This document shows positions 16,394 through 53,757 of a stretch of DNA of 64,000 nucleotides, piece by piece (position 1 is the first letter of the stretch; each line of letters opens with the position of its first letter). The stretch is from Patescibacteria group bacterium (GTDB lineage: Bacteria > Patescibacteriota > Microgenomatia > Curtissbacterales > GWA2-41-24), in contig JBBTUN010000009.1 in NCBI GenBank assembly GCA_038063735.1, forward strand, positions 12,491 through 76,490, read 5' to 3'. The notes beneath the pieces were generated by a model. It did not search any database, was not told where the DNA came from, and saw nothing but the letters and a program-made list of their open reading frames with translations. A program made the position numbers and the translations under genes.

Positions 16394-16455
16394 ATATTGG
16401 TTATTTTATGACTATAGGGTATAATTAAGCTCTAGATATTTTTCGAGATAGATGT

Positions 16456-17946
16456 ATGGTCAAAAGATTAGTTGAAAAATACGACAAACAGGTTCACAGA
16501 TTCCTGGAAATATTACCAGGCACGTTTTCGTGGACTTTGATACTGTTCCCTTTTTGGGGTTCTTTCTGGATCCCTCACTATGTTGCCTACTTTATTATAA
16601 TTTTTATAGTTTTTTGGTTTTATAAATCAGCATCATTGGCAATAACCTCTATTATTTCGCATCTTAAGCTTAGAGCATCGGAAAAATACGACTGGCTGAG
16701 TGACGCAAAAACGCTCTCCAATTACAAGAAGCTTCACCACTTAATAATTGTTCCAACATACAAGGAACCATTGCATACAATTGAGGCCGGAATTAAGTCG
16801 ATTGCAAAGCAGGATATTGATAAAAAACAAATATCGGTGTGTGTTGGATTTGAGGCACGGGAAGGCAAAGATGCCCGGGAAAAAGCAGCGGTAATTGAAA
16901 AAGAGTTTAAAGGCGTTTTTGCTAACCTTATTGTTTCATTTCACCCAGACATAGAGCGCGAAGTTAAAGGCAAGTCCTCAAATCAAGCATATGCCGTAAA
17001 AGTTGCCAAGAAAAAATTAATAGGCGTGCAAAGGCGCGATATCAACTTTATCACTGTAACTTCAAAAGACGCTGACGGGATACTAAGCGAGAAGTATTTA
17101 GCCTGTCTTTCGTATAAATTTCTTACCCAGGAAAACAGACATTTATTATTTTGGCAGCCAATTGTACTTTTTTACTCCAACATTTGGAAAGTGCCGGCAC
17201 CCATTCGTGTTATCAGCTCCCTTTCCTCCGTATGGCAAACAGGTCTTAACTCCAGAACTGACAGATTGGTTAATTACTCTATGTATTCCGTTTCTATGAA
17301 GCTTTTGGACGATGTTGGCTATTGGGACGTGGATGTTATCCCAGAGGACTATCGAATATTTTTCAAAACATATTTTGCAAAAGATGGAAAGGTGGACGTT
17401 GATCCGGTATTTTTGCCGGTCTATGCAGATGCTGCAGAGTCCACTGGTTACGTCAAATCTCTTTTTAACCTGTATGAACAGGAAAAAAGATGGGCCTGGG
17501 GAGTTAGCGACGATGCCTATTTTATTAAGAAATGGTTAACTTACACACATATACCTTTTTGGCAAAGGACAATTAGGGTTTTTAAGGTGCTGGAAGATCA
17601 CTTTTTGTGGCCAGTGCATTGGTTTGTTATTACGCTTGGTGCCACAATTCCGGTTCTTTTGAACCCTGCGTTTGCGCAAACCGTGATGGGCCAAAACTTG
17701 CCTAGAATTTCTTTTGGAATACTCACAAGCTGCTGGGTATTTTTGGCAATAGTTCTTTTAATTGATATTAGACAGAGGCCAAAAAGAGAAGGCAAAGTGG
17801 GTATTTTAAAGAAGCTTGTTACGCCTTTTGAATTTATTATGATGCCGGTGGTAACACTAATTTTTACCGCTCTTCCAGGAATTGATGCCCACACGCGTTT
17901 GATGTTGGGTAAATACCTTGAGTACAAGGTCACCGAGAAAGTGTAG
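16456..17946 (+). CDS. membrane-embedded processive family-2 glycosyltransferase (cellulose/chitin/hyaluronan-synthase-like)
   Basis: N- and C-terminal TM helices flank a cytoplasmic domain carrying IIVPTYKEP, DAD (DxD), EDYRIF and YEQEKRWAWG (QxxRW) motifs, diagnostic of processive GT2 synthases. Confidence 0.5.
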   Translation: MVKRLVEKYDKQVHRFLEILPGTFSWTLILFPFWGSFWIPHYVAYFIIIFIVFWFYKSASLAITSIISHLKLRASEKYDWLSDAKTLSNYKKLHHLIIVPTYKEPLHTIEAGIKSIAKQDIDKKQISVCVGFEAREGKDAREKAAVIEKEFKGVFANLIVSFHPDIEREVKGKSSNQAYAVKVAKKKLIGVQRRDINFITVTSKDADGILSEKYLACLSYKFLTQENRHLLFWQPIVLFYSNIWKVPAPIRVISSLSSVWQTGLNSRTDRLVNYSMYSVSMKLLDDVGYWDVDVIPEDYRIFFKTYFAKDGKVDVDPVFLPVYADAAESTGYVKSLFNLYEQEKRWAWGVSDDAYFIKKWLTYTHIPFWQRTIRVFKVLEDHFLWPVHWFVITLGATIPVLLNPAFAQTVMGQNLPRISFGILTSCWVFLAIVLLIDIRQRPKREGKVGILKKLVTPFEFIMMPVVTLIFTALPGIDAHTRLMLGKYLEYKVTEKV

Positions 17947-18030
17947 TTAGTTCATGGTTTTATGATAGCTCCCTAGATTCCCATTTGCGAATTGTTATCT
18001 AGCATTGTTTGTGACTATACTAACTAGCAG

Positions 18031-19377
18031 ATGTTTAATTTTCTTGCCCAAAATTATCTGACGCGCGGTTTTTGGGGGGACGAGGCGTGGACTTCTATGA
18101 TTTCACTGCTTCCCTACACGCAGATGTTAAAGACGACGGCTGCAGATTTTCATCCTCCAGGTTACTACACCATTGTGGGGCTTGTTTACAGGTTTTTGCC
18201 CCCTACCGAGATTAATACCAGACTTGTTTCCTTAGTTTTTTACTTTCTGACGCTTTTTATGGTTTATAAGCTGGCCAGTTATGTGAAGGGGGGTACTTTT
18301 GGGGTTTTGAGTGCATTGGTCGTGGCCTTAAATCCTATATTCTTTACATATGCATTTGAGGCAAGGAATTACACAATGTTTGCCTTTGTAGCTACGGGGT
18401 CTGTATTTTTTCTGATTGAACTGTCTAAAAAGTTTTCAAAAGCACGCGCTATTGCATTTATTTTGTTTACAACACTTGGAATGTACACACATTACTACAT
18501 GTTTTTTATTTTAGGGGCGCAAGGCATTTATCTTCTGCTTTTTGATAGAAAAATATTTCTTAAGATGATGCTTCTTTACGTTGTTGTAGGGGTGTTGTAC
18601 CTACCCTGGTTGAAGGCTCTGGTGGGACAACTTACGTCGGTTTCCTCAAGCTACTGGATAGCTCCGATTGATTGGCGGCACACGCATTACGAGGCTCTAC
18701 TTAGAATTTTAGGCGGTGAGCAAAAGAATGACGTGTTAAATATATTTTCTCTGAGAGACACATTGTTTTGGTTGTCTATAAGTTTACTTGGACTAGGGGT
18801 TGTGCAGCATATTTTGCGCCATAAATTCGAAAAGCCGTATCTTTTAATTTGGCTTTGGGCAGTTGTCCCTTTTATTCTGGCAACTCTGCCCGGGCTTCAG
18901 GTTGACGGTTTTAAATTCCCGTTTAGGCCAATATTTTTTTGGAGGTATTTAATTGGGTCTTCCATTCCGCTTTCTATGGTGATTGTTCACGCCGGCCTAA
19001 AACTTCCCAAGCAAATGGCTTTAGTTCTTATTGGTGCGATTATATTGTTGTCGGCAATTGTCGATGTGCGGACTTTTAGTTCATCTCCGTATTCATTCCG
19101 GGAAGAGTATCAAAATAAGGTGTTAGAACAAATTGAGACGAGTGATGATATTGTGACTATTTTACCTTCGTTTGCCGAAGTTATATATTATAAGGACCGG
19201 AATGGTTTAAGCAACAATTTGATTGTTTCACCCGAAGGCCTTGTGCAGTCATCCGGTAAAAGCTTGCTGGACACGTACGTTGAGAATGGTAAAGTAACTC
19301 TTGGAGAGAGTAAAGGCGCTAATTTTGAACTGCGTCGAGACGACAACGGACAGATTAAGACTATTAATGATAGATGA
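18031..19377 (+). CDS. GT-C fold polytopic glycosyltransferase (ArnT/PMT/arabinosyltransferase-like)
   Basis: 448 aa, with an acidic FWGDEAW motif in the first extracytoplasmic loop and about 11 TM helices, typical of lipid-phosphate-sugar dependent GT-C enzymes. Confidence 0.45.
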   Translation: MFNFLAQNYLTRGFWGDEAWTSMISLLPYTQMLKTTAADFHPPGYYTIVGLVYRFLPPTEINTRLVSLVFYFLTLFMVYKLASYVKGGTFGVLSALVVALNPIFFTYAFEARNYTMFAFVATGSVFFLIELSKKFSKARAIAFILFTTLGMYTHYYMFFILGAQGIYLLLFDRKIFLKMMLLYVVVGVLYLPWLKALVGQLTSVSSSYWIAPIDWRHTHYEALLRILGGEQKNDVLNIFSLRDTLFWLSISLLGLGVVQHILRHKFEKPYLLIWLWAVVPFILATLPGLQVDGFKFPFRPIFFWRYLIGSSIPLSMVIVHAGLKLPKQMALVLIGAIILLSAIVDVRTFSSSPYSFREEYQNKVLEQIETSDDIVTILPSFAEVIYYKDRNGLSNNLIVSPEGLVQSSGKSLLDTYVENGKVTLGESKGANFELRRDDNGQIKTINDR

Positions 19378-20858
19378 AAAGTTTGCTTACTAAACTTGAG
19401 AGGCACCATTTACTAATTTTTGTTGTACTTTTTTTGACTTTTATTTTTCGATTCCCATCCCTATTTGAACCGTTTTGGTACGGAGATGAGGGTATTTTTG
19501 CAGCGGTCGGGCGAAACCTAAATTTTGGTGGAGTACTTTACCAAACTGCTTGGGACAATAAACCTCCAATGATATATCTGACTTATGCTGGGATATTTTC
19601 GATGTTCGGCGTATCTATGTTTTGGCTTAGGCTCGTAACAATTGTGGTGGTTCTTGCAACTTCTGCCGTAATTTACGAAATCGGTAATATGACTATTGGT
19701 AAACATAGAGCGCTTATTGCTGCATTTATTTTTGGTCTAATAACTTCGTTTAGGTTAGTTGAAGGCAACTTGGCACTAACCGAAATATTTATGATACTAC
19801 CAATTTCTTTGGCAATCTGGATTGCAATAAAGCGAAATTTTGACTACGTCTCTCTATTTGCGTCCGGGGTACTTATTTCAGTGGCTTCTTTGTACAAACA
19901 AGTTGGCGCATTTGAGGCAGCAGCGCTTGGAATCTATGTTTTATTGCAAAAAGACAGTTTGGTTGGATTTATTAAAAAAGGCTTTGCACTATCCTTGGGT
20001 TTTGTTGTTCCATACGCTATAACAATTGGATATTTTGCCTCAAAAGGCTTAGTTTCCGACTACATTTTTGGGGCATACACATATTACAAAATTTATCTCA
20101 ATGAAAGCCCTCAATATGCATTCTTAATTAATACGGCGAAATATTTGCCCGTTGTTTCAACAGTTTTCTACGGTCTCTGGAAAAAATTTAAAGGTGTCGA
20201 TGTTGGTTACAATCATCTGCTGCTTCTTTGGCTTTCGTTGTCTCTGTTGGGAAGTTATTTTTCCGGAAGAACCTACGGTCATTATCTCGTTCAAGCAGTT
20301 CCGGCTCTCTCGCTACTTTTGGCATCCATTAATCTTAAAGGCGTATCTTTGAGTAAGGAGAGGCTTTTGTATGCGACTTTGTTTCTTCTTCCCGTTTTGT
20401 TTTTAACAAGGCTTTTCTTTTCAACATTTATTGTTAATGGCCCTGTTTCTCAGGCTAAATACTGGGTTAATTTTTCCCAAAAGGTGACAGGCGTCAAAAC
20501 TTTGGACGAATATAATAATTTTTTTGATACTAATGTAAACACAATCATGGCTTTATCTGACTTCCTGAAAATGAATGGGGGCTATGGAAAATCTATTTAT
20601 ATATGGGGAGATTTTCCCTGGTTGTATGCGATGATGGATGCAAAAAACCCGTCGCGGTACGTTACATCTTTTCATGTATTTGGAGTACCCAACGGACAAG
20701 AAGAAGTGGTCAGGGATTTGGTGGATAAGACACCTTTGTATATTATTAAGCCGCAAACCTCTATTGGCCACTTTAATGAGCTTGAGAATTTGTTAGGTGC
20801 AAAGTATACTCTTCAGGCAAAAATAAACAATGCCGATGTTTACGCTTTAATAAAGTGA
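19374..20858 (+). CDS. GT-C fold glycosyltransferase, family 39/83-like (ArnT/PMT-type)
   Basis: FWYGDEGIF and DNKPPMIYL motifs match the ArnT/PMT N-terminal signature. About 12 TM helices. Start overlaps the previous stop (ATGA). Confidence 0.55.
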   Translation: MKSLLTKLERHHLLIFVVLFLTFIFRFPSLFEPFWYGDEGIFAAVGRNLNFGGVLYQTAWDNKPPMIYLTYAGIFSMFGVSMFWLRLVTIVVVLATSAVIYEIGNMTIGKHRALIAAFIFGLITSFRLVEGNLALTEIFMILPISLAIWIAIKRNFDYVSLFASGVLISVASLYKQVGAFEAAALGIYVLLQKDSLVGFIKKGFALSLGFVVPYAITIGYFASKGLVSDYIFGAYTYYKIYLNESPQYAFLINTAKYLPVVSTVFYGLWKKFKGVDVGYNHLLLLWLSLSLLGSYFSGRTYGHYLVQAVPALSLLLASINLKGVSLSKERLLYATLFLLPVLFLTRLFFSTFIVNGPVSQAKYWVNFSQKVTGVKTLDEYNNFFDTNVNTIMALSDFLKMNGGYGKSIYIWGDFPWLYAMMDAKNPSRYVTSFHVFGVPNGQEEVVRDLVDKTPLYIIKPQTSIGHFNELENLLGAKYTLQAKINNADVYALIK

Positions 20859-20870
20859 AAATTGATATTT

Positions 20871-21296
20871 ATGGCAACATCAAATGTGGATACACAATCT
20901 CTACCCAAACTTGGTGGAATAACACCTAGCCGATTTTCAATAAGTGAAGAGGTTCAAAAGGGAGTTGTATCCGACAAGTTTAACCTCGTTGTTTTTTCGC
21001 TTTGCGCGATTTTTGTCATTTTGCAGGTTCTAATACTAATTTTTTACTGGAAACGCCTGCCTCCGCAGATCCCTTTGTTTTACTCAAAACCGTGGGGAGA
21101 CGCAATGCTGGCTACCAACTTCTTCGTTTGGATTTTACCAATGCTGGGCGCTCTTTTTGTTTTTTTAAATTTTTTAATTGTAATTTTTTTAACACGAGAT
21201 AATAAATTTTTATCGAGAGCCCTTATTGTTGCCAGTTTAATTGTTGGCTTTTTAACTTTTTATGCTACCCTTAAGGTCATTACACTAATAGCATGA
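20871..21296 (+). CDS. small membrane protein, hypothetical
   Basis: The track start is TTG at 20862. The first ATG is at 20871 (MATSNVDTQ...). Three hydrophobic helices. The stop overlaps the next gene's start. Confidence 0.3.
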   Translation: MATSNVDTQSLPKLGGITPSRFSISEEVQKGVVSDKFNLVVFSLCAIFVILQVLILIFYWKRLPPQIPLFYSKPWGDAMLATNFFVWILPMLGALFVFLNFLIVIFLTRDNKFLSRALIVASLIVGFLTFYATLKVITLIA

Positions 21297-22375
21297 CCTC
21301 ACTCGCTGCTTTTGTTCTGTCTCTTTTTTTGAGCTTAATTTTCGTAAAATGTACAACTTGGAGTGCTTTAAAAATTGGCCTTGTTGATGATCCAAAAAAA
21401 AGAAAGCATCCTGCTGCTATGCATACAAAGCCCATACCACGTGCAGGTGGTTTGCCAATATTTTTAGCTTTTTTAATAACTTCTCTGATTTTTGTTCAAT
21501 TTTCTCAGAAGTTTTTTGGGATAATCTTGGGAGGGCTTGTTTTGATACTAGTGGGAATTTTGGATGACAAGTACGACTTGAAAAGTCTCTATAAGTTTGG
21601 TGGGCAAATGCTGGCGGCTGTTATCGTCGTTGCGTCTGGGATTGGCATTAGCTTTATAACAAATCCGTTTCAGCTTTTTGAAAACAATTTACCTGGCGTG
21701 ATTCGGCTGGATGAGTGGAAGATTGTTTTTGATTTCTTTGGAACCCACTCAATAGTGATACTTGCCGATCTCTTTGCGCTGTTTTGGATAGTATGGGTAA
21801 TTAATATGGTTAATTTTTCAGCAGGTGTTGACGGTCAACTCGGCGGGATTGCTCTTGTTACACTACTGGTTATTTTTGTAGCGTCACTGCGGTTTGGTGC
21901 AGATCCGACACAAAGTATTGTGACAACGCTTGCAGTTATTGGGTCCGGAGCAACTCTTGGATTCTTGATATTTAATGTTTATCCCGCCAAAATTTTCCCG
22001 GGTGACAGCGGTTCGTACTTTTTGGGCTTTTTGATAGCTGTTCTTGCGATTTTGGCTGGTGCCCGTGTTGGCACTGCTATTTTGGTAATGGCTGTGCCTT
22101 TGATTGATGGCGTTTTTACAGTCGTTAGGCGTATCGCTGAGGGTAAATCTCCATTTACCGGCGACAGAAAACATTTGCACCACCGGCTTTTAGAACTCGG
22201 CTTTAACCCAAGGGAGGTTTCCTTGTTTTATTGGCTTTTGTGTGCTATTTTAGGCGCGGTTGCGCTAGTTTTGCCTGCCGATCAAAAGTTATTTGCTGGC
22301 GTATTTATAGCTATAATAGTATTAGGCGGAATTTTATGGATAAATACAAGTTTACAGGGTACGGACCGAAAGTAA
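21293..22375 (+). CDS. polyprenyl-phosphate N-acetylhexosamine-1-phosphate transferase, WecA/MraY family (GT4)
   Basis: DDKYDL (DDxxD) and VNMVNFSAGVDGQLGG (NxxNxxDGxDGL) motifs. About 11 TM helices. 360 aa. Confidence 0.75.
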   Translation: MTSLAAFVLSLFLSLIFVKCTTWSALKIGLVDDPKKRKHPAAMHTKPIPRAGGLPIFLAFLITSLIFVQFSQKFFGIILGGLVLILVGILDDKYDLKSLYKFGGQMLAAVIVVASGIGISFITNPFQLFENNLPGVIRLDEWKIVFDFFGTHSIVILADLFALFWIVWVINMVNFSAGVDGQLGGIALVTLLVIFVASLRFGADPTQSIVTTLAVIGSGATLGFLIFNVYPAKIFPGDSGSYFLGFLIAVLAILAGARVGTAILVMAVPLIDGVFTVVRRIAEGKSPFTGDRKHLHHRLLELGFNPREVSLFYWLLCAILGAVALVLPADQKLFAGVFIAIIVLGGILWINTSLQGTDRK

Positions 22376-23346
22376 TCTGGATACCATTTTGGCTGTTTGT
22401 TTCGTCCCGCCCCCGTCAGTGGCTTAAAAATTTGGCGCTTTTTGCAGCCCTTGTATTTGATGGCTCATTCTTTGTCGGGGAAAAATTCTTTTTAACTGTT
22501 ATCGGGTTTTTCATATTTTGTTTGATTACCTCGGGAATTTATATAATTAATGATGTCATAGACCGCAAGAAAGACCTTTCCCACCCTTTTAAAAGTAATA
22601 GGCCGATAGCCGCGGGCAGAGTTAGTCCTCTGATTGCGACTGTTTGGGCAATAGTAGTTTTGGTGTTTGGCCTTGTTTTGGCCTCTTCTCTATCTACATT
22701 TTTTTTATATGCTTGCGTTGCTTACATCGCTTTACAAGTTACTTATTCCTTATTTTTAAGGTCTTATATGCTGCTTGACGTAATGGCAATTGCGTCTGGA
22801 TTTTTGCTTAGGGTGTATGCCGGTGCGGTACTAATTGATGCACATGTTACTGTCTGGTTTATGTTAACTGTTGCCTCGCTTGCTCTATTTTTGGCGATCG
22901 GTAAAAGGCGAAGTGAACGCACGCTTCTTATGGGTTCCGGAGCAAGGGGAATCGATACAAGGCAAATCCTTAATAAATACCCCGAAACATTACTTGACGG
23001 GCTAACCATTATGTTTGCAACAGCTTGCTGGTTTTCTTACACCATGTTTACCTTTTTGCAACCGCCGCCTTCTGCGGGGCCGCAAGTTTTGGTATTATTT
23101 GGCGATTATTTGCCAAGAACTTTTCTGGCATCAAAATGGCTGATGGCAACGGTACCTTTTGTAATCTATGGTGTGATGAGATATTTGTATGTTATTTATG
23201 AGAAAAAAGAAGGCGAATCACCTGAGCGGGTTTTACTTTCCGACATACCGCTTCTTTCCTCGGTAGTGCTTTGGATTTTTATAGTCTTTCTGGTAATTTA
23301 CGGCTCGGATATTTTACCTGCAAAACTGGTGCGATTTTTACAGTAA
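22336..23346 (+). CDS. UbiA-family decaprenyl-phosphate phosphoribosyltransferase-like enzyme (DPPR synthase-like)
   Basis: The ORF track starts at TTG 22231 inside the upstream gene. The ATG at 22336 (MDKYKF...) is the likely start. LITSGIYIINDVIDRKKDLSHPFKSNRPIAAG matches the DPPR-synthase (Rv3806c-type) signature NDxxDxxxDxxHPxKxxRPIAxG. Polytopic membrane protein. Confidence 0.65.
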   Translation: MDKYKFTGYGPKVIWIPFWLFVSSRPRQWLKNLALFAALVFDGSFFVGEKFFLTVIGFFIFCLITSGIYIINDVIDRKKDLSHPFKSNRPIAAGRVSPLIATVWAIVVLVFGLVLASSLSTFFLYACVAYIALQVTYSLFLRSYMLLDVMAIASGFLLRVYAGAVLIDAHVTVWFMLTVASLALFLAIGKRRSERTLLMGSGARGIDTRQILNKYPETLLDGLTIMFATACWFSYTMFTFLQPPPSAGPQVLVLFGDYLPRTFLASKWLMATVPFVIYGVMRYLYVIYEKKEGESPERVLLSDIPLLSSVVLWIFIVFLVIYGSDILPAKLVRFLQ

Positions 23347-23590: not shown

Positions 23591-23908
23591 TCAGAAGTTA
23601 ACATGTTGGCGGCCTATTGGCACGATTTTTATTAGTAAGCGCCCTTTGAGGGCTTGAGTTACTTTTTCAAGAGTTTTGAGAGAGTAACCTGTGTAGTCTG
23701 CTGATTCGATTCTTGCGATATTGGATTGCCTGGTACCAACTAGTTTTGCCAGTTGAGTTTGAGTTAACCCGATTTTTTTTCTAAGATCACAAATCTGAAA
23801 AGCAATGTCCCATGCCTGACCGGCCTTTTTAAATTCCTCTTTTAATGAGGGGTCTTTCTTCAGTAGTTTTTCTGTTAATTTATCTAAATCGTCCTTTTTT
23901 CTTTTCAT
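23591..23908 (-). CDS. HTH XRE-family antitoxin (HigA-like)
   Basis: 105 aa. The C-terminal HTH (LTQTQLAKLVGTRQSNIARIE) is of Cro/C1 type. Start overlaps the stop of the upstream toxin gene (ATGA). Confidence 0.65.
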   Translation of the reverse strand: MKRKKDDLDKLTEKLLKKDPSLKEEFKKAGQAWDIAFQICDLRKKIGLTQTQLAKLVGTRQSNIARIESADYTGYSLKTLEKVTQALKGRLLIKIVPIGRQHVNF

Positions 23909-24261
23909 GAATCTTTCCTCGCTTTTAGTTCTTTTAATCTTTTCCTGGCAATTTCCAGTTCATTTGATGGTGTTTTCTGTTGCTTTTTAACAAAAACGTG
24001 CAGCAAGATAATTATCCTTCCTTTGTCAAAAGTATATATTATTCTTAGGATATCCGTTCCCGATTTTATTCTTAACTCCCATAATCCAGATTCGATATGC
24101 TTAGATAATGGTTCCTTGTGATAGCTTCTATTTCGTAGCTTCTCGATTCCTTCTCTAGCCTTTACAAGTAGTTGCCTGTTTCTGTTTGCAAGACCTAGAA
24201 AAAATTCTTCAATAGGACTTTTGCTTGAATTACTTTTGTAAAAGATTATTTCAAAATCCAT
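23905..24261 (-). CDS. RelE/ParE-superfamily toxin (HigB/Gp49-like), type II TA toxin
   Basis: 118 aa. Its size, position immediately upstream of an XRE antitoxin, and the conserved basic C-terminal half (GLWELRIKSGTDILRIIYTF...ILLHVFVKKQQKTP) are typical of HigB-like toxins. A perfect palindrome sits just upstream. Confidence 0.55.
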   Translation of the reverse strand: MDFEIIFYKSNSSKSPIEEFFLGLANRNRQLLVKAREGIEKLRNRSYHKEPLSKHIESGLWELRIKSGTDILRIIYTFDKGRIIILLHVFVKKQQKTPSNELEIARKRLKELKARKDS

Positions 24262-24336: not shown

Positions 24337-25422
24337 TTAGCCTTGATTTTGATTGTCCTGAGGGTTGTTTTGGAGCTTTGGCTGGGCGTCGAGAGTCGGA
24401 AAACGCGGGTCGGGGTTAGGGGTCGACGAGCTTTTGGTTGGCGAAGAAGCAGAATCTTCCTTCTTAACTTTCTTACTTTTAAGCAAAGCTATAAGCATGG
24501 GTATTGTAAACAATGCTGTGAGAAGAATATATGGCGGTAAGGTGATTAAAGTTCCTGTGCCTGAAAAAGAATCTATACTTCTAGTTCCACCATCGCCAAA
24601 TTGCCCGGCATACATTAATATTACCCAAAATGGTATAACAACGATTAATGAATAAAAAAGAACCTTTCTGATTTGTTTCAAAAACAAAAGTGACTTTTCA
24701 GGATCATCTCCAGCTGATTTATTGAAGAAAAAAAATAGTAGATTACTAGCCACAATTAAGACTAAGGCTCCATCAAAATAATCGAATAAATGTCGGAAAA
24801 CATATGATCCGAATCTGCTCAAGGACAAAATGGCGAAAGTAGAAATAATTTCGGAAAATATTATAAAAACAAAATTTATAATTGCGAAAGGTAAGCTGAT
24901 TTCTGTTTGTGTTTGTTTCAGAGCATAACCAGTGCCTGATGAGTTTTCAGCATATGCTTGTGTATGTGAGTACCATAATCTCCATAAATGGCGGGTGGTC
25001 AACAGTGTTACAAATAGGGAAATTAAACCGGCTACTATGAAAATAATGCCTGCAACTGCTCCCCATTCTTCACCGATGGTAGATTGATGAGTTGCTTCAT
25101 AATTTATGATCCATAAACTCCATATTATTCCGTAAACAGATAAACAAATGAGTAAAATATTTAGTATTAATCCAGTAATTCCTGCCCATGATTTTTTTAA
25201 AAGAATTCCACATGCGCATAAGAAAATGCTCATTGTTGCTATTAGTAATAACAGTTGTAAAAGACCTTTCCCTGGACCGACTCCATCAATAGTGCTGAGG
25301 AGTATCAAAAATGCAATTGCAGCAAGAATAAAATATGGAAATGAAAGTATAATGCTGAAGCCTTTTTTAGTGTTAAGTTCTGTTTGCTGATTTTGTAGCT
25401 GGATTTGTGAGTTTTGTTCCAT
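24337..25422 (-). CDS. polytopic membrane protein with Pro/Ser-rich C-terminal tail, hypothetical
   Basis: 361 aa with at least eight hydrophobic helices and a C-terminal PTKSSSTPNPDPRFP low-complexity tail. Confidence 0.35.
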   Translation of the reverse strand: MEQNSQIQLQNQQTELNTKKGFSIILSFPYFILAAIAFLILLSTIDGVGPGKGLLQLLLLIATMSIFLCACGILLKKSWAGITGLILNILLICLSVYGIIWSLWIINYEATHQSTIGEEWGAVAGIIFIVAGLISLFVTLLTTRHLWRLWYSHTQAYAENSSGTGYALKQTQTEISLPFAIINFVFIIFSEIISTFAILSLSRFGSYVFRHLFDYFDGALVLIVASNLLFFFFNKSAGDDPEKSLLFLKQIRKVLFYSLIVVIPFWVILMYAGQFGDGGTRSIDSFSGTGTLITLPPYILLTALFTIPMLIALLKSKKVKKEDSASSPTKSSSTPNPDPRFPTLDAQPKLQNNPQDNQNQG

Positions 25423-25868
25423 TAATTAGTCTGGATTTGGAAGGTTACCGATTGGGCGTCAGTTGCTGATTGCGACAGAAGGCTGATTGGGGTGGATGAT
25501 TGGGATGGGATGTTGATTTTAATTAACTGATTATTTAAATTTTCTCCAAAAAAAAGCTTGTTTTCTGTTGATTGATTTTTGATTGTGTAAGTTTTGGTTT
25601 CGCTTGTCGGATTGTTGACGATGATAATGGACAAGTATGCCTGGGATGGTACCTGTTTGGTAAGGGTGATTGTATAGGTATTTTGTGATTGGCTGAAAGT
25701 CATACTGGGGAATTTTTCGGTTTGGGAAACTAAAAGATATGGCGACTCTGATTTTACACCGGCTACTTGGGCAAAGTTTTTGGCAAAGTAGATTGGCGCT
25801 GCGATCAGCGAAACAAGAAAGAACACAGCGAGCAGGTTATAAACGATTGTCGCTAAGTGATGCTTCAT
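25422..25868 (-). CDS. membrane-anchored exported hypothetical protein
   Basis: 148 aa with an N-terminal TM helix and a Ser/Thr/Gln-rich body. Stop overlaps the next gene's start. Confidence 0.3.
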   Translation of the reverse strand: MKHHLATIVYNLLAVFFLVSLIAAPIYFAKNFAQVAGVKSESPYLLVSQTEKFPSMTFSQSQNTYTITLTKQVPSQAYLSIIIVNNPTSETKTYTIKNQSTENKLFFGENLNNQLIKINIPSQSSTPISLLSQSATDAQSVTFQIQTN

Positions 25869-25870
25869 AA

Positions 25871-25945
25871 TCTATTAATTTTAAATTTTAAGTTTTTAAT
25901 TTTAATTGAATTTTTAATGTTTAAATTTTTAAAATTTCTTTTAGT
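25871..25945. repeat. AT-rich ~70-nt dispersed intergenic repeat, copy 1
   Basis: TTAATTTTAAATTTTAAGTTTTTAATTTTAATTGAATTTTTAATGTTTAAATTTTTAAAATTT aligns at roughly 85% identity with 43971-44050. Confidence 0.6.
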
Positions 25946-26477
25946 TCCACCTTGTTATTTCCATTTCTTTTTGAACATCCATTGCAAAAATCCACGTGAA
26001 GTTTGCAGCGACGATGAGCGCAATAACCGTAATTTGAGGGTATGTAACACCAGAAATTGTTGAAGCTATTAAAAAACCGGTGCTTAGCCATAAAAATATT
26101 AACCAGATGGTTGCTATGTGATAGAGGTGGAAACTTGAGAGAATTAGGTTTTCCAAGTTAAGCGACGCCAGTTTTTGCTGAGTTTGCGGGGTAACGTGTG
26201 TTTCATGCAGGAAATGGGCACGCATTAAAACAATTAGAGTGCCTGCGGCGGCTGTTAAAAACATGGCCAGATTGGAATAATTCTCGGCAATTACGTAGTT
26301 GGGCAGGTTTGCAAAGACAACTTTCGGCAGGACGTTAAAAGCGCCACCAAAAACCACTTCATATTTAAAATTAAAAAAATAGGCAGACACAAGCAGCCCA
26401 GCCATTTTGGCGATAATTAAAATAACTGCCGGGATTATGGCTTCGTCTATGAGTTTTGCTAGCGATTTGGCTACCAT
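25941..26477 (-). CDS. polytopic membrane protein, hypothetical
   Basis: 178 aa with five hydrophobic helices. Confidence 0.35.
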   Translation of the reverse strand: MVAKSLAKLIDEAIIPAVILIIAKMAGLLVSAYFFNFKYEVVFGGAFNVLPKVVFANLPNYVIAENYSNLAMFLTAAAGTLIVLMRAHFLHETHVTPQTQQKLASLNLENLILSSFHLYHIATIWLIFLWLSTGFLIASTISGVTYPQITVIALIVAANFTWIFAMDVQKEMEITRWN

Positions 26478-26487
26478 AAATTTAGTA

Positions 26488-26600
26488 TACCAGTAGAGGT
26501 CAGTAGTATCGGTGAGTCGGTATAGTCGGTAAGAAAATATTGTACTGATATTACTGACAATACTGAATATGCCGACATTTACTGATTTTTACTGAAATTT
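26488..26600. repeat. palindromically arranged array of 8-9 bp CAGTA/TCGGTA units (about 6 forward + 6 inverted)
   Basis: The left arm reads CAGTAGAGGTCAGTAGTATCGGTGAGTCGGTATAGTCGGTAAG, and the right arm TACTGATATTACTGACAATACTGAATATGCCGACATTTACTGATTTTTACTGA is its near reverse complement. Intergenic between two minus-strand genes. Confidence 0.65.
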
Positions 26601-27424
26601 TATATCTTCTTGGTGTATTGCTTGGAAATCCAGCCCAATTTGCCTTCGAAGGAAATTTTTATCCAATCTTCGGTTTCCTGGATAATTTCCAGTTTATCCC
26701 CTGTGTTTACCCTGCCAATTTCAGCCGAATCCAGCACCGGTTCTTTTCTTACTTTAAGATACCCCTGCGGAGTCTTGGCAATTTCTACTTCGGGAGTGTC
26801 GGTTTTAACGCTTTCGGTCGACGTGGGGTTTTTTGCCAACTCGGATGCCAATGTTACGCTGGCCACAAGCTTATATTTAGATGAGGTTTTTATGGCAAAT
26901 TCCCGATCTATAAAACCCTGGCCTTTGCTGATTCCTACTTTATGATCACCATTTTCTAAATCTGTAATAATTAGGGGTGTTTTACCTTTATATTTACCGT
27001 CTATGGTTATTTCTGCATCAGTTGGATTGGACGCAATAAATACGTCATTTTTACCCTTCTCCAGCCACAGAATTTCCCCACTTTGAGCCATTAAATTGTT
27101 ATTGAGTTCGCGATTTACGACAGTTAAGGTGCTTGGGTAAAGATCGATTTTACTTATATAGGAAGCTTCGGAAGCCGTAACTTTAAGGGTGTATGATCCA
27201 CTTTTGAGCTGGTCGGAGAAAAATGGGGTTTTCCCTAAGTGTTTCCCGTCCAGAAAAACCGAAGCTTCGGGGGTGGAAGTTACCTGCAGTGCGGCCGGCT
27301 TGGCAGTGCCAATGAGCGAGCAGCCACTTAATGAGGTTGCAAGTAGTAGGTAGAGGGTGGTAGGTAGCAGGTATTTTTTTACGACTAACGATGAACGATT
27401 AACAATGAACGTGATACTAGGCAT
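26600..27424 (-). CDS. lipoprotein with tandem PEGA domains and a C-terminal bacterial SH3 (SH3b) domain
   Basis: The track start is a TTG. The in-frame ATG begins MPSITF..., and the signal peptide ends in the lipobox LSGC. PEGA-like repeats are present (YTLKVTASEASY, HKVGISKGQGFIDREF). The C-terminal SH3b reads GYLKVRKEPVLDSAEIGRVNTGDKLEIIQETEDWIKI. Confidence 0.55.
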   Translation of the reverse strand: MPSITFIVNRSSLVVKKYLLPTTLYLLLATSLSGCSLIGTAKPAALQVTSTPEASVFLDGKHLGKTPFFSDQLKSGSYTLKVTASEASYISKIDLYPSTLTVVNRELNNNLMAQSGEILWLEKGKNDVFIASNPTDAEITIDGKYKGKTPLIITDLENGDHKVGISKGQGFIDREFAIKTSSKYKLVASVTLASELAKNPTSTESVKTDTPEVEIAKTPQGYLKVRKEPVLDSAEIGRVNTGDKLEIIQETEDWIKISFEGKLGWISKQYTKKI

Positions 27425-27714
27425 TGCAATTAAGGTAACATTTGCGCATAGTTGGCGCAAGCATTTTAACGATAATTTTACTTCTTTTGAAGCTATTATA
27501 TCAAACTATAAGCTATGAATTTAACTGTGGGGCTGTGGGTACCTAAAAGTTGGTTCCATTTGCTTTTTATCTTACTATCGGTTTGACTTTGGAGTTAGAA
27601 TTTGCTATAATTCGCCTTTGTAAATACCTCGACTATGGGCTTATAGTCCATATTCCCCTTCTCTTTTTTATAGGGGCGTATTGTGGCTTTGAAGCCTGAG
27701 GTTAGGAGAAAAAT

Positions 27715-45445: not shown

Positions 45446-45866
45446 TACGATTATTGACGGACTAAGTGACGCGCCTATTTCTATTGGGGATAGGTTGACT
45501 ACTTTGGGAGTTGAGGAGAATACTCTTTCTACATTTTCCAAGGAACTTTTGGAAACTGTTGTTTATGGAAGCAGCTTTTTGAAGTTTTTACAGGAAAACA
45601 GAGACAAGCTTGGCATAAATGGGGAAATTCCGGCGGAAGCGTTGCCGGAGGATTTTAAAGACGCTTTTGAAGAGGGTGAGGCGACTTTAGAAAACAGACT
45701 CGTTGCTGCAGGCTTTCCTAAAGAAGACCTTTCTGCTATTTTTGGCGAGGATACCTTACAACTTTCTCTTTCTGCCCAAGAATTCACCGCTTTTATAGAA
45801 AAGAACCCAGACAAATTTTTAGCAGGAATAAAAAACCTGGCAGGAGTGGGGGCTACCGATGCCTGA
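45426..45866 (+). CDS. hypothetical acidic protein, second gene of the operon
   Basis: 146 aa and Glu/Asp-rich. The stop overlaps the next ORF's start by 8 nt. Confidence 0.3.
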   Translation: MKQLTLDTIIDGLSDAPISIGDRLTTLGVEENTLSTFSKELLETVVYGSSFLKFLQENRDKLGINGEIPAEALPEDFKDAFEEGEATLENRLVAAGFPKEDLSAIFGEDTLQLSLSAQEFTAFIEKNPDKFLAGIKNLAGVGATDA

Positions 45867-51482: not shown

Positions 51483-52042
51483 TAAAGCTTAAGGTATTTG
51501 GCGAGCGCTAAAATCGATAACGAAGCAATAAAGCCAAGACTTGCGCCAAATGCGGCCATAATTTTGCTATTTAAAACCTGCCGTGTCGGGTCGTTTGGAA
51601 TGCCAACGCCCACGAGTTCTATATTCGCTTGCGGCACAAGGTTTTTAATTTTCTCGTTATATGAATATATGACTTTTGTCGATGTTTGACTGGAAACGTC
51701 TTTGTTTTTGGCAGTAACGGTTATTCTGATTACCTGAGGCGCCATTTTCCTGACTTCCAGTTGAGATTCTCCTAAATCTGCCCCGCTTGCAAAATCGGGG
51801 CTTTGTAAGATAGCAACGGTGGTGTCGGTGAGATTTGATGAATCAACCCGAGGAGAATTTTCGCTTAGGGTATTTTTGTCCTGTACTTTCACAAAGAGCA
51901 GCGTTTGCTGTTGGTAACCGGACTTTAAAAATTTGGTGGATGAAAATCCGACGCTTGATGCCACAAGAGTAATTATGGCGATAAATATTAAATTTTTCTT
52001 TATTTGACTAGTTAAATCTTTAATTTCCATACCATTTTGCAA
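51482..52042 (-). CDS. short Wzz/YveK-like polysaccharide chain-length-determinant-type membrane protein (two TM helices)
   Basis: N-terminus EIKDLTSQIKKNLIFIAIITLVASSVGF (Wzz N-terminal-like), a C-terminal TM helix, and a periplasmic segment between them. 186 aa. Start overlaps the previous gene's stop. Confidence 0.3.
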   Translation of the reverse strand: MQNGMEIKDLTSQIKKNLIFIAIITLVASSVGFSSTKFLKSGYQQQTLLFVKVQDKNTLSENSPRVDSSNLTDTTVAILQSPDFASGADLGESQLEVRKMAPQVIRITVTAKNKDVSSQTSTKVIYSYNEKIKNLVPQANIELVGVGIPNDPTRQVLNSKIMAAFGASLGFIASLSILALAKYLKL

Positions 52043-53731: not shown

Positions 53732-53757
53732 AGGATATTTTTTGTAACTTCAATATA

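What the first reader, a model, noticed from the sequence alone, without database searches (positions are those of the whole stretch)
16456..23346. Envelope glycan locus combining a processive GT2 synthase, two GT-C enzymes, WecA and a DPPR-synthase-like UbiA enzyme
Six co-directional, tightly packed genes (several ATGA overlaps) are all integral-membrane. They include a QxxRW-type processive GT2, two ArnT/PMT-like GT-C transferases that use polyprenyl-phosphate-sugar donors, a small membrane protein, a WecA/MraY-family initiating transferase, and a UbiA enzyme matching the decaprenyl-phosphate 5-phosphoribosyltransferase signature. In Actinobacteria that enzyme makes the lipid-linked pentose precursor of arabinan. 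Finding it with GT-C enzymes in a minimal-genome bacterium suggests a polyprenyl-phospho-pentose (ribose/arabinose-like) surface glycan pathway that, to my knowledge, is uncharacterised outside Corynebacteriales. No DprE1/DprE2 epimerase or phosphatase is visible in the window, so the pathway may stop at the phosphoribosyl lipid or use unknown partners.
Basis: partly seen in the sequence, partly recalled or inferred. Interest (0 to 1): 0.6.

Follow-up and report, generated by a model that had tools for sequence, protein, structure and literature searches.

The report
Lipid-linked pentose glycan operon, Curtissbacteria
A six-gene operon of membrane enzymes in a tiny-genome Curtissbacteria (CPR) bacterium does contain an enzyme predicted to make a lipid-linked ribose-phosphate sugar donor, as in the tuberculosis cell-wall pathway. 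Such systems are already known well outside mycobacteria, so this is an uncharacterised variant of a known pathway, not a new kind.

Summary
Six co-directional, tightly packed integral-membrane genes lie at 16456-23346. They are a cellulose/hyaluronan-synthase-fold GT2 (g1), two ArnT-like GT-C enzymes (g2, g3), a small 3-4-TM protein (g4), a WecA/MraY-superfamily transferase (g5) and a UbiA enzyme (g6; real start 22336).

g6 is very probably a polyprenyl-phosphate 5-phosphoribosyltransferase. Its best family and PDB matches are DPPR synthase/Rv3806c. All 11 PRPP/Mg-binding residues of Rv3806c are identical or conservatively replaced, and they stay so in 80 CPR homologues.

The genome is Candidatus Curtissbacteria. 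The module is a conserved core feature of Microgenomates and WWE3 (at least 559 GTDB hits).

The constant partner of UbiA is the WecA-like enzyme plus g4, which is fused to it in WWE3. GT-C genes are present in only 31 of 55 related loci.

No DprE1/E2, other epimerase, phosphatase or GtrA/MATE flippase lies in the window or within 10 kb of UbiA in 80 genomes.

The claim "uncharacterised outside Corynebacteriales" is outdated: see P. aeruginosa pilin arabinosylation (2011) and the Citrobacter three-component Ribf system (2024). Annotated homologues occur in Lactococcus, rhizobia and haloarchaea.

Verdict: a new, partner-poor variant of a known kind, of moderate interest.

The parts
16420..16425 (+). 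TATAAT box in the 62-nt TatD-g1 spacer; possible promoter of the operon
   Evidence: Read from the sequence. The consensus scan did not call it because no -35 match is present, so this is weak.
16456..17946 (+). g1: membrane GT2 of the cellulose/hyaluronan-synthase fold (496 aa). It has 2 N-terminal and about 4-5 C-terminal TM helices. D205xD207, E297-D298 and Q342-E-K-R345-W346 are invariant.
18031..19377 (+). g2: GT-C glycosyltransferase (448 aa), PMT_2 type, with a WGDE motif after TM1. It is the more dispensable of the two GT-Cs in related genomes.
   Evidence: PMT_2 5.7e-9, 36.8 bits vs cut-off 26.1. No PDB sequence hit. Only 25% identical to g3 over 89 N-terminal residues. Orthologues were found in 22 loci.
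19374..20858 (+). g3: GT-C glycosyltransferase (494 aa), ArnT-like GT-C_A fold, with an invariant W35-Y-G-D38-E39 loop and a small C-terminal alpha/beta domain.
   Evidence: PMT_2 1.1e-9, 39.1 bits. NCBI name 'glycosyltransferase family 39 protein'. AF2 model: pLDDT 88.3, pTM 0.88. Foldseek best hit is ArnT 5f15 (E 6e-7, TM 0.54), followed by AglB/PglB/STT3, AftD, Pmt1, AftA and AftB. Invariant residues.
20871..21296 (+). g4: small membrane protein (141 aa from ATG; 144 aa from TTG 20862) with the conserved loop motif KLPPxxPxxYSxPWG(D/E). Probably an accessory module of the g5 transferase.
   Evidence: No Pfam or NCBIfam hit. 52 orthologues sit beside GT4. A g4 HMM matches residues ~20-123 of the ~500-aa GT4 proteins of 10 WWE3 genomes, E 1e-7 to 1e-14, so it is fused there.
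21293..22375 (+). g5: polyprenyl-phosphate sugar-1-phosphate transferase of the MraY/WecA (PNPT) superfamily (360 aa). D91-D92, N171..G178-x-D180-G181, D238 and H294-L-H-H297 are present.
   Evidence: Glycos_transf_4 1.8e-35. WecA TIGR02380 scores 121.6 bits, well below its cut-off of 326; MraY scores 56 bits. PDB hits are MraY and GPT. Motif conservation.
22336..23346 (+). g6: UbiA-superfamily polyprenyl-phosphate 5-phosphoribosyltransferase (PPPRS/DPPR-synthase type, 336 aa). Motifs N72-D73-xx-D76-xxx-D80 and K190-R191-xx-E194.
   Evidence: PF01040 65.5 bits. NF008977 DPPR synthase 218 bits vs cut-off 234; the next non-DPPRS prenyltransferase models score <=46.5 bits. Best PDB hit is Rv3806c 8j8j, 7e-27. 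All PRPP/Mg ligands of Rv3806c are conserved. 35% identical to the PGAP-annotated DPPR synthases of L. cremoris and Halostagnicola.

Best explanation
The six genes form a conserved envelope-glycan operon of a Candidatus Curtissbacteria (CPR, Microgenomates) genome. All of its enzymes work on polyprenyl-phosphate carriers.

Shown by sequence and structure comparison:
- g6 is a membrane phosphoribosyltransferase of the Rv3806c/PPPRS type. It should convert PRPP plus polyprenyl phosphate into polyprenyl-P-beta-D-ribofuranose-5-phosphate.
- g5 is a WecA/MraY-superfamily sugar-1-phosphate transferase that should make a polyprenyl-PP-sugar primer. g4 is its accessory module.
- g2 and g3 are ArnT-like GT-C enzymes, a class that uses polyprenyl-monophosphate-sugar donors outside the membrane.
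- g1 is a cellulose/hyaluronan-synthase-fold GT2 with the D,D,D,QxxRW signature.

Inferred:
- The g6 product is dephosphorylated and flipped by proteins not yet identified.
- It then serves as the pentofuranose donor for g2/g3.
- g2/g3 decorate a glycan that is primed by g5(+g4) and/or polymerised by g1. That glycan is probably attached to peptidoglycan by the LCP ligase encoded about 10 kb upstream of the window.
- No epimerase is linked to the locus in any of 80 related genomes, so the default sugar is D-ribofuranose rather than arabinofuranose.

This is the logic of the three-component pentofuranose glycosylation systems and of mycobacterial arabinan synthesis. Here it is a core, lineage-wide module, not a variable O-antigen decoration.
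For: UbiA identity:
- DPPRS models are by far the best NCBIfam hits.
- Rv3806c is the only PDB family matched.
- R22, K28, Y70, N73, D77, K87, R90, Q135 and Y138 are identical; K143 is R and Y157 is F in the window protein.
- These residues are invariant or conservatively replaced in 80 CPR homologues, except Q135, which is Q in 69 of 80 and otherwise H, N or S.
- Gao et al. state that the phosphoribose-binding residues are not conserved in other UbiA enzymes.
- The loop II/IV residues mutated in C. youngae ORF15 are present.

GT-C fold, with ArnT (a polyprenyl-P-pentose user) as best match.

g1 fold and motifs.

Operon structure: ATGA and 40-nt overlaps.

Module conservation in related loci:
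- UbiA is next to GT4 in 51 of 55 loci, g4 in 46 and GT-C in 31.
- GTC-g4-GT4-UbiA is kept as a block in a different genomic context in L029, L039 and L051.
- g4 is fused to GT4 in WWE3.

Precedents with the same logic:
- C. youngae and P. aeruginosa.
- L. cremoris plasmid: membrane protein-DPPRS-HAD-GtrA-LCP.
- Halostagnicola: GT-C-oxidoreductase-DPPRS-PHP-MprF-like TM.

An LCP ligase and a Wzx/Wzy/Wzz set lie in the same genome region.
Against: - No biochemical data exist.
- No phosphatase (HAD, PAP2, PHP), no flippase (GtrA, SMR, MATE, MprF-like) and no epimerase was found in the window or within 10 kb of UbiA in 80 genomes. Two of the three 'components' are therefore missing or unrecognisable.
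- GT-C genes are absent from the cluster in 18 of 55 related loci that keep g1-g4-GT4-UbiA, so the UbiA to GT-C link is weaker than the UbiA-PNPT link.
- The whole region sits in a long housekeeping synteny block (RmuC-MetRS-TatD ... PEGA-M23-GroEL) conserved across the class. Adjacency alone is therefore weak evidence of shared function.
- g6 scores just below NCBI's equivalog cut-off (218 vs 234).
- The acceptor glycan and the role of g1 are guesses.
Confidence: 0.5

Rival explanations
1. Arabinan-like pathway. The ribosyl lipid is epimerised to polyprenyl-P-arabinofuranose by DprE1/DprE2-type enzymes encoded elsewhere in the genome, and g2/g3 are arabinofuranosyltransferases.
For: UbiA is homologous to Rv3806c. 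Kelly et al. report that Araf-containing glycans always have DprE1/E2 homologues with the PPPRS. Only about 6% of a roughly 1-Mb genome is visible in the window.
Against: There is no FAD_binding_4, SDR or epimerase protein in the 64-kb window, nor next to UbiA in 80 related loci. In the known Araf systems the epimerase genes are clustered with the synthase. g3 resembles ArnT more than AftA, AftB or AftD.
Confidence: 0.12
2. Synteny without a shared pathway. The genes are neighbours because of lineage-wide collinearity. g1 makes and exports its own beta-glycan. g5+g4 prime a Wzy-dependent or teichoic-acid-like polymer. The GT-Cs use polyprenyl-P-hexose from a GtrB-like GT2 elsewhere. The UbiA product feeds a separate, unknown acceptor.
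For: The long housekeeping synteny block includes MetRS, TatD and GroEL. GT-Cs are absent in a third of loci. In several Curtissbacteria g1 is separated from the rest by inserted GH18, Peptidase_S11 and DUF2079 genes. A soluble 244-aa GT2 lies just upstream of the window. GtrB-like GT2 genes accompany GT-Cs in L029, L039 and L051.
Against: Start/stop overlaps imply co-translation of g2-g3 and g4-g5-g6. The GTC-g4-GT4-UbiA block persists outside the housekeeping context. All the products act on the same lipid carrier pool. DPPRS plus GT-C pairing recurs in unrelated lineages.
Confidence: 0.22
3. Protein O-glycosylation. The lipid-linked pentose is transferred by the GT39/PMT_2-like GT-Cs onto pilins or S-layer/surface proteins, as TfpW arabinosylates P. 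aeruginosa pilin, rather than onto a polysaccharide.
For: g2/g3 are annotated GT39 and match PMT/PMT_2. The P. aeruginosa precedent uses a DPPRS homologue. From general knowledge, CPR cells are rich in type IV pili.
Against: No pilin or S-layer gene is in or next to the operon. Co-location with a PNPT, a synthase-fold GT2, an LCP ligase and Wzx/Wzy genes points to a polysaccharide. The fold search cannot tell protein acceptors from glycan acceptors.
Confidence: 0.12
4. The UbiA protein is an ordinary aromatic or lipid prenyltransferase (MenA/UbiA/CyoE/DGGGP-synthase-like), and the DPPRS resemblance is superficial.
For: It is a member of Pfam UbiA. It scores below the NCBIfam equivalog cut-off, and NCBI names it only 'UbiA prenyltransferase family protein'. 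JGI labels some homologues 4-hydroxybenzoate polyprenyltransferase.
Against: DPPRS models score 184-218 bits against <=46.5 for quinone, haem and archaeal-lipid models. The phosphoribose-specific ligands K28, Y70, Q135 and Y157(F) are conserved. No quinone, haem or ether-lipid genes are nearby.
Confidence: 0.03

Closest known systems
Three-component pentofuranose glycosylation system of Citrobacter youngae O1/O2 (ORF15 PPPRS-PRP, ORF14 MATE flippase, ORF12 GT-C/GT136; Kelly et al. PNAS 2024, PMC11127046)
   Same: A UbiA-family PPPRS with the same catalytic residues sits next to GT-C enzyme(s) whose nearest solved relative is ArnT. With no epimerase present, Ribf is the expected sugar. The glycan is built on a polyprenyl carrier.
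   Different: There is no fused or adjacent HAD phosphatase and no MATE, SMR or GtrA flippase. There are two divergent PMT_2-type GT-Cs, and their GT136 membership was not tested. UbiA is translationally coupled to a PNPT+g4 pair and linked to a synthase-fold GT2. The module is core and highly conserved across a class (70-83% identity within Curtissbacteria) instead of serotype-variable. The organism is Gram-positive-like CPR, a group not covered in that survey.
Mycobacterial decaprenyl-phospho-arabinose pathway (Rv3806c UbiA, Rv3807c PAP2, DprE1/DprE2, Rv3789, Emb/Aft GT-Cs, WecA-primed arabinogalactan)
   Same: g6 is homologous to Rv3806c (E 7e-27, about 35% identity), with all PRPP/Mg ligands conserved. 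The overall logic matches: a WecA-type primer, a GT2 polymerase, a lipid-pentose donor, GT-C enzymes and an LCP ligase.
   Different: No DprE1/E2 and no Rv3807c-like gene are in the locus. The GT-Cs are not Emb/Aft-like. The GT2 is membrane-embedded and HAS/BcsA-like, not GlfT2-like. The lipid carrier is unknown.
Gram-positive and archaeal DPPRS clusters annotated by PGAP: L. cremoris plasmid pF27D (membrane protein-DPPRS-HAD-IB-GtrA ... LCP) and Halostagnicola larsenii (GT-C-oxidoreductase-DPPRS-PHP-MprF-like TM)
   Same: The DPPRS proteins are 35% identical to g6 over their full length (E 5e-49 and 9e-55). They are embedded in polysaccharide or GT-C contexts. They show that the phosphatase and flippase are non-orthologously replaced between lineages.
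   Different: Those loci carry a recognisable phosphatase and a candidate flippase beside the synthase. No homologue of either is in the window or in 86 CPR loci.
P. aeruginosa Pa5196/PA7 D-arabinofuranose pilin glycosylation (PPPRS, DprE1/E2 homologues, TfpW GT-C; Harvey et al. 2011, PMC3151058, cited)
   Same: A DPPRS homologue plus a GT-C occurs outside Actinobacteria. This shows that the acceptor can be a protein.
   Different: That system has epimerases and a pilin context. Neither is seen here.
Membrane GT2 enzymes of the cellulose-synthase fold (BcsA, class I hyaluronan synthases, chitin synthases; minimal version PcManGT of Pyrobaculum)

Membership tests
DPPR synthase / PPPRS branch of the UbiA superfamily (Rv3806c, C. 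youngae ORF15-C) | UbiA-superfamily membrane fold (Pfam PF01040 above the gathering score) | tested here: met
   65.5 bits vs 34.2; about 8-9 hydrophobic segments.
DPPR synthase / PPPRS branch of the UbiA superfamily (Rv3806c, C. youngae ORF15-C) | Closer to DPPRS models and structures than to any quinone, haem, chlorophyll or archaeal-lipid prenyltransferase | tested here: met
   NF008977 218 bits, NF008978 184, NF008976 132, against <=46.5 for the others. The only PDB hits are Rv3806c 8j8j/8j8k.
DPPR synthase / PPPRS branch of the UbiA superfamily (Rv3806c, C. youngae ORF15-C) | Reaches NCBIfam's curated equivalog cut-off | tested here: not met
   218 vs 234 bits (NF008977) and 184 vs 207 (NF008978). 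This is a near miss, consistent with a divergent CPR clade.
DPPR synthase / PPPRS branch of the UbiA superfamily (Rv3806c, C. youngae ORF15-C) | Mg/pyrophosphate ligands: NDxxDxxxD loop and K/R cluster (R22, N73, D77, K87, R90, Y138, K143 of Rv3806c) | tested here: met
   The window protein has R25, N72, D76, K86, R89, Y137 and R142. All are invariant in 80 CPR homologues, with K/R exchange at position 143.
DPPR synthase / PPPRS branch of the UbiA superfamily (Rv3806c, C. youngae ORF15-C) | Phosphoribose-specific ligands absent from other UbiA enzymes (K28, Y70, Q135, Y157) | tested here: met
   The window protein has K31, Y69, Q134 and F156. Phe also occurs at this position in some mycobacteria according to PMC10994848. 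Across 80 homologues: K 80/80, Y 80/80, Q 69/80, F/Y 80/80.
DPPR synthase / PPPRS branch of the UbiA superfamily (Rv3806c, C. youngae ORF15-C) | Catalyses PRPP + polyprenyl-P -> polyprenyl-P-ribose-5-P | not testable with these tools
   Needs a membrane assay as in PMC11127046.
Three-component extracytoplasmic pentofuranose glycosylation system (Kelly et al. 2024) | PPPRS gene clustered with a GT-C glycosyltransferase | tested here: met
   g2/g3 lie 1.5-4 kb upstream of g6 in the same operon. Only 31 of 55 related loci keep a g2/g3-type GT-C in the cluster.
Three-component extracytoplasmic pentofuranose glycosylation system (Kelly et al. 2024) | 5-phosphate phosphatase fused to or beside the synthase (HAD PRP; PAP2 in Mtb) | tested here: not met
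   There is no HAD, PAP2 or PHP protein in the window. No homologue of the Lactococcus HAD or the haloarchaeal PHP is in 86 CPR loci. Only a weak PAP2-like 194-aa protein lies about 3 kb beyond the window start.
Three-component extracytoplasmic pentofuranose glycosylation system (Kelly et al. 2024) | Dedicated donor flippase (MATE, SMR or GtrA family) in the cluster | tested here: not met
   No such Pfam hit in the window and no GtrA homologue by tblastn. The only small membrane protein, g4, is fused to the PNPT in WWE3, which argues for a role with g5.
Three-component extracytoplasmic pentofuranose glycosylation system (Kelly et al. 2024) | GT-C belongs to CAZy GT136 | not tested
   No ORF12 reference sequence was available. 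g3 is ArnT-like by fold, as Kelly et al. report for ORF12.
Mycobacterial-type arabinan (DPA) pathway | DprE1 (FAD oxidase) and DprE2 (SDR reductase) epimerase pair | tested here: not met
   Absent from the 64-kb window and from +/-10 kb around UbiA in 80 genomes. The rest of the genome could not be read.
Mycobacterial-type arabinan (DPA) pathway | Emb/Aft-type arabinofuranosyltransferases | tested here: inconclusive
   AftD, AftA and AftB appear among the fold matches, but behind ArnT and the oligosaccharyltransferases.
Processive membrane GT2 synthases (BcsA/HAS/chitin synthase; D,D,D,QxxRW) | DxD, (T)ED and QxxRW motifs in a GT-A domain flanked by TM helices | tested here: met
   D205xD207, E297-D298 and Q342xxR345W346 are invariant in 26 homologues. 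Helix layout.
Processive membrane GT2 synthases (BcsA/HAS/chitin synthase; D,D,D,QxxRW) | Significant match to a curated GT2 or synthase family model | tested here: not met
   0 Pfam families at E<=0.01. PgaC_IcaA scores 17.5 bits vs 422. Only a weak precomputed PF13632 hit.
Processive membrane GT2 synthases (BcsA/HAS/chitin synthase; D,D,D,QxxRW) | Structural similarity including a TM channel for the nascent polymer | tested here: inconclusive
WecA/TagO-type polyprenyl-phosphate HexNAc-1-P transferase (PNPT superfamily) | Glycos_transf_4 domain with the DD, NxxNxxDGxDG, GD(S/T)GS and HxHH motifs | tested here: met
   PF00953 122.7 bits. D91-D92, D180, D238 and H294/H297 are present. The first Asp of DGxDG is Ala177, as in the eukaryotic/archaeal GPT pattern (that comparison is from my own knowledge).
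WecA/TagO-type polyprenyl-phosphate HexNAc-1-P transferase (PNPT superfamily) | Equivalog-level identity with WecA (or MraY) | tested here: not met
   TIGR02380 121.6 vs 326; mraY 56 vs 192. The sugar specificity is therefore unknown.

The most novel reading that the evidence does not exclude
In Microgenomates and WWE3 the phosphoribosyl lipid is not a conventional side-chain donor. The PPPRS is translationally coupled to an unusual PNPT+g4 enzyme. No phosphatase, flippase or epimerase accompanies it, and a third of lineages lack a clustered GT-C.

The 5-phosphate may therefore be retained and used in one of two ways:
- It is transferred as phosphoribofuranose to give an anionic, teichoic-acid-like core wall polymer.
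- It serves as the phosphate acceptor for the PNPT, giving a new kind of lipid-linked primer.

On this reading the unrecognised g4 and the conserved neighbours (the 148-aa and 178-aa membrane proteins) are new pathway components. That would be a new essential envelope chemistry for a large part of the CPR.
Probability: 0.1. Interest if true: 0.75.

Novelty: new variant of a known kind. Interest (0 to 1): 0.4.

Why it matters
Nothing is known experimentally about the chemistry of CPR/Patescibacteria cell envelopes. These ultra-small episymbionts depend on surface contact with hosts.

A core module conserved across the class predicts a PRPP-derived lipid-linked pentofuranose, most simply ribofuranose. 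That gives a concrete, testable prediction for a wall or surface glycan of Microgenomates and WWE3. It also extends the recently defined pentofuranose glycosylation systems to a major uncultivated radiation.

The comparison shows that the phosphatase and flippase steps are filled by different, non-homologous proteins in different lineages: PAP2, HAD or PHP for the phosphatase, and GtrA, MATE or an MprF-like protein for the flippase. The CPR version may therefore hide new ones.

The g4-PNPT fusion identifies a previously unannotated accessory module of a WecA-like enzyme.

The finding is not a new principle. The enzyme family is already annotated as DPPR synthase in some Curtissbacteria records, and the pathway logic is published.

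Tried and rejected
Literature:
- Searches for DPPR synthase, decaprenyl, DprE1 or UbiA together with Patescibacteria or candidate phyla radiation found nothing relevant.
- The Lipocone preprint mentions UbiA and Patescibacteria only in unrelated contexts.

Searches that found nothing:
- PDB sequence searches for g1, g2 and g3 gave no usable hit.
- The afdb50 fold library was unavailable.

Hypotheses tested and dropped:
- g4 as the missing GtrA/SMR-like flippase. This is weakened by its fusion to the PNPT in 10 WWE3 genomes and by the lack of any similarity to Lactococcus GtrA.
- The 222-aa gene directly upstream of UbiA in WWE3 as the missing phosphatase. It is an OmpR-type response regulator.
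- Large genes next to UbiA in L025, L050 and L068 as novel GT-Cs. Reading their sequences (my recognition, not a profile search), they look like PNPase and LepA.

Partner searches:
- The HAD, GtrA and 462-aa partners of Lactococcus, and the PHP, MprF-like and oxidoreductase partners of Halostagnicola, were searched against the window and 86 CPR loci. Only generic SDR similarity to a GDP-mannose-dehydratase-like gene turned up.

Beyond the window:
- Extending past both window ends found a weak PAP2-like protein, a soluble GT2 and an LCP ligase upstream, and conjugation-like genes downstream. No epimerase was found.

I could not read whole CPR genomes, so I could not test whether DprE1/E2 or phosphatase genes lie elsewhere.

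Full report
OBSERVATION

The window holds six co-directional + strand ORFs at 16456-17946 (g1), 18031-19377 (g2), 19374-20858 (g3), 20862/20871-21296 (g4), 21293-22375 (g5) and 22231/22336-23346 (g6). All six products are multi-pass membrane proteins by hydropathy.

g2/g3 and g4/g5 overlap as ATGA, and g5/g6 overlap by 40 nt. The only spacers are 62 nt before g1, holding a TATAAT box at 16420-16425, and 85 nt before g2.

The mechanical ORF for g6 starts at a TTG. Public gene calls on the same contig, and more than 100 homologues of 334-337 aa, place the start at ATG 22336.

ORGANISM

g6, g1 and g3 are 100% identical to proteins of an NCBI 'Patescibacteria group bacterium' MAG and of Hainich groundwater (H41, 0.1 um) assemblies. 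Their nearest relatives are all Candidatus Curtissbacteria. The 'minimal-genome bacterium' is therefore a CPR member of the Microgenomates.

THE UbiA ENZYME (g6)

- Pfam UbiA is above threshold.
- In NCBIfam the three DPPR-synthase models score 218, 184 and 132 bits. The quinone, haem, chlorophyll and archaeal-lipid prenyltransferase models score 46.5 bits or less. The best model misses its equivalog cut-off narrowly (218 vs 234).
- The only PDB proteins matched are the two M. tuberculosis Rv3806c entries (7e-27).
- Gao et al. (PMC10994848) list the PRPP/Mg ligands of Rv3806c as R22, K28, Y70, N73, D77, K87, R90, Q135, Y138, K143 and Y157. They state that the phosphoribose-binding residues are not conserved in other UbiA enzymes.
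- In the window protein these positions are R25, K31, Y69, N72, D76, K86, R89, Q134, Y137, R142 and F156. The Y-to-F change also occurs in mycobacteria according to that paper.
- Across 80 CPR homologues every one of these positions is invariant or conservatively replaced, apart from Q135, which is Q in 69 of 80 and otherwise H, N or S.
- The loop II/IV residues mutated in C. youngae ORF15 (N, D, D, D; R..E) are also present.

g6 is very probably a polyprenyl-phosphate 5-phosphoribosyltransferase.

THE OTHER GENES

g2 and g3 both pass the PMT_2 threshold. They are only remotely related to each other: 25% identity over the N-terminal 89 residues, including the FW(Y)GDE loop. A confident AF2 model of g3 (pLDDT 88.3) has a GT-C_A fold. 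ArnT is the best match (E 6e-7, TM 0.54). It is followed by oligosaccharyltransferases, AftD, Pmt1, AftA and AftB. ArnT uses a polyprenyl-monophosphate pentose donor, and Kelly et al. also name it as the nearest relative of their Ribf-transferring GT-C.

g5 is a clear Glycos_transf_4/PNPT member. It is far below the WecA and MraY equivalog cut-offs. It keeps D91-D92, D180, D238 and the HxHH motif.

g4 has no family hit.

COMPARATIVE GENOMICS

A pattern scan of GTDB species representatives with a UbiA alignment gave at least 559 confirmed relatives. The best 80 are all CPR: Curtiss-, Chisholm-, Beckwith-, Woese-, Collier- and Gottesmanbacteria, and WWE3. Several MAGs are evidently mislabelled.

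Mapping the six proteins and clustering all neighbouring ORFs shows a long conserved block: RmuC-x-x-MetRS-TatD-g1-[0-2 GT-C]-g4-GT4-UbiA-(148-aa, 178-aa membrane proteins)-PEGA/SH3-M23-...-GroEL/ES. This block includes housekeeping genes, so adjacency by itself is weak evidence.

Three observations go beyond general synteny:
- The block GTC-g4-GT4-UbiA is kept in a quite different context in L029, L039 and L051. There it sits among YfhO, PMT_2, GtrB-like GT2 and GDP-mannose dehydratase genes.
- A g4 HMM matches the N-terminal ~100 residues of the ~500-aa GT4 proteins of ten WWE3 genomes (E 1e-7 to 1e-14). g4 is therefore fused to the PNPT there.
- Among 55 loci with a full upstream flank, GT4 accompanies UbiA in 51 (within 150 nt in 38), g4 in 46, g1 in 37 and a g2/g3-type GT-C in only 31. 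Eighteen loci have g1-g4-GT4-UbiA with no GT-C.

The constant partner of the phosphoribosyltransferase is thus the PNPT+g4 pair, not the GT-Cs.

WHAT IS MISSING

A Pfam scan of essentially all window ORFs finds no FAD oxidase, SDR/epimerase, HAD, PAP2, PHP, GtrA, SMR or MATE protein. The recurrent neighbours of UbiA in the 80 loci are a response regulator, Wzy_C, TPR, YfhO, PMT_2, GT2, DUF2079 and an acyltransferase, plus housekeeping genes that I recognised by eye rather than by profile search (AlaRS, GAPDH, PGK, PNPase, LepA).

Just beyond the window start the same contig encodes a weak PAP2-like 194-aa protein, a soluble GT2 and a bona fide LCP glycopolymer ligase. The window itself has a second glycan locus with DUF4012, Wzz, Wzx and Wzy_C genes at 48.5-55 kb.

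COMPARISON WITH WHAT IS KNOWN

Kelly et al. 2024 (PMC11127046) showed biochemically that C. youngae ORF15 (HAD phosphatase + PPPRS) makes polyprenyl-P-Ribf from PRPP. A MATE protein is the presumed flippase, and the GT-C ORF12 transfers Ribf to the O antigen. Added epimerases convert the donor to Xylf or Araf. They describe candidates in Gram-negatives, a Bacillus and a phage, and cite the P. aeruginosa pilin Araf pathway. CPR are not mentioned.

The DPPRS-like clade is large: 1,238 clusters at 50% identity at E<=1e-30. Ninety-eight plasmids carry homologues.

The L. cremoris plasmid pF27D has membrane protein-DPPRS-HAD-IB-GtrA next to an LCP gene, inside an EPS cluster. Halostagnicola has GT-C-oxidoreductase-DPPRS-PHP-MprF-like TM. 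Both synthases are 35% identical to g6. None of their phosphatase or flippase partners has a homologue in the window or in the 86 CPR loci.

The phosphatase and flippase are therefore non-orthologously replaced between lineages. In CPR they are either elsewhere in the genome or of an unrecognised type.

INTERPRETATION

Most likely (about 0.5) the operon builds one envelope glycan:
- g5+g4 prime a polyprenyl-PP-sugar.
- g1 polymerises or extends it.
- g6 supplies a PRPP-derived polyprenyl-P-pentofuranose.
- g2/g3 transfer that pentose outside the membrane.

With no linked epimerase, the sugar is by default ribofuranose rather than arabinofuranose.

Rivals:
- An Araf pathway with distant DprE1/E2 genes.
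- Mere synteny of independent pathways.
- Protein O-glycosylation.
- An ordinary prenyltransferase (largely refuted).

The most novel reading not excluded is that the 5-phosphoribosyl lipid is used without dephosphorylation. It would act either as a phosphoribosyl donor or as an acceptor for the coupled PNPT.

VERDICT

This is a new, partner-poor, core-genome variant of a known kind of system. It is of moderate interest mainly because it gives a concrete prediction for the unknown envelope chemistry of a large CPR clade.

Noticed in passing
L074:7174-8679 (+), also L058, L069, L076, L078, L080, L081, L082, L084, L086; window 20871-21296: In WWE3 genomes the small membrane protein g4 is fused to the N-terminus of the WecA-like transferase (about 500 aa). 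This Rosetta-stone link suggests that g4 is an unannotated accessory module of this PNPT subfamily.
   Followed up: yes
GT4 orthologues in L022-L086 (e.g. L036:8943-10016); window g5 residue D238: Outside Curtissbacteria the orthologous PNPT has Tyr or Phe in place of the Asp of the GD(S/T)GS motif (PGY(G/S)G or WGFG). From general knowledge of MraY and WecA, that Asp is the Mg-binding catalytic residue. The first Asp of DGxDG is also replaced throughout. It is unclear how these enzymes bind metal.
   Followed up: partly
L006:2693-5004; L007, L012, L020, L077, L019: In several Curtissbacteria a GH18 (chitinase-family) gene, a Peptidase_S11 gene and sometimes a DUF2079 membrane protein are inserted directly after the g1 synthase-fold GT2. 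This may hint that the g1 product is GlcNAc-containing.
   Followed up: no
window 23591-24261 (-): A Gp49(HigB-like)/HTH_3 toxin-antitoxin pair sits immediately downstream of UbiA. It is absent at this position in related genomes such as L005 and L007 (L006 carries other unassigned ORFs there), so it looks like a strain-specific insertion.
   Followed up: partly
window 24337-27460 (-): Conserved genes of unknown function lie downstream: a 361-aa membrane protein, a 148-aa protein, a 178-aa 4-TM protein and a PEGA+SH3 protein. The 178-aa protein stays convergent with UbiA even in WWE3 and in loci that lack GT4. It is a candidate for a missing pathway component, but it has no family hit.
   Followed up: partly
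window 48522-54987 (-): A second envelope-glycan locus: DUF4012 (986 aa), a Wzz-like protein, an RNase H-like protein, a Wzx flippase (Polysacc_synt) and a Wzy_C polymerase/ligase. It has no initiating transferase of its own in the window, so g5 could be its primer enzyme.
   Followed up: no
L088:217-1374 (-), L088:7247-7831 (+), L087:3699-4433 (-), i.e. 3-10 kb before the window start: The same contig encodes an LCP (LytR-CpsA-Psr) glycopolymer-peptidoglycan ligase above its NCBIfam cut-off, a weak PAP2-like 194-aa protein and a soluble 244-aa GT2.
   Followed up: partly
window 45859-48423 (+): An 854-aa acidic, low-complexity, apparently helical (coiled-coil-like) protein with a C-terminal TM segment and no Pfam hit. 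It lies in a stretch of unusual composition (GC 0.47, GC skew 0.25, AT skew 0.26).
   Followed up: no
L008, L009, L014, L017, L021-L025, L029 and other loci: Many GTDB MAG records titled 'uncultured Gammaproteobacteria', 'Pseudomonadales' or 'Candidatus Saccharibacteria' (binchicken co-assemblies), plus one 'Nanoarchaeia' and one 'Spirochaetia', carry typical Microgenomates synteny. They appear to be mislabelled.
   Followed up: no
window 57351-60110 (+); L089:15224-21143: dnaA-dnaN, with rnpA and yidC upstream, marks the origin region, yet cumulative GC skew rises monotonically across the window with no turning point. Just beyond the window end are conjugation/type IV secretion-like genes (PrgI, TraC-like, TraG-like).
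   Followed up: no
L093:2954-8523 (Halostagnicola larsenii plasmid): An archaeal DPPRS homologue is flanked by a PMT-type GT-C, an NAD(P) oxidoreductase, a PHP-domain protein and an MprF-like TM protein. This is a further apparent variant of the lipid-pentose system, with a different phosphatase and a different candidate flippase.
   Followed up: partly
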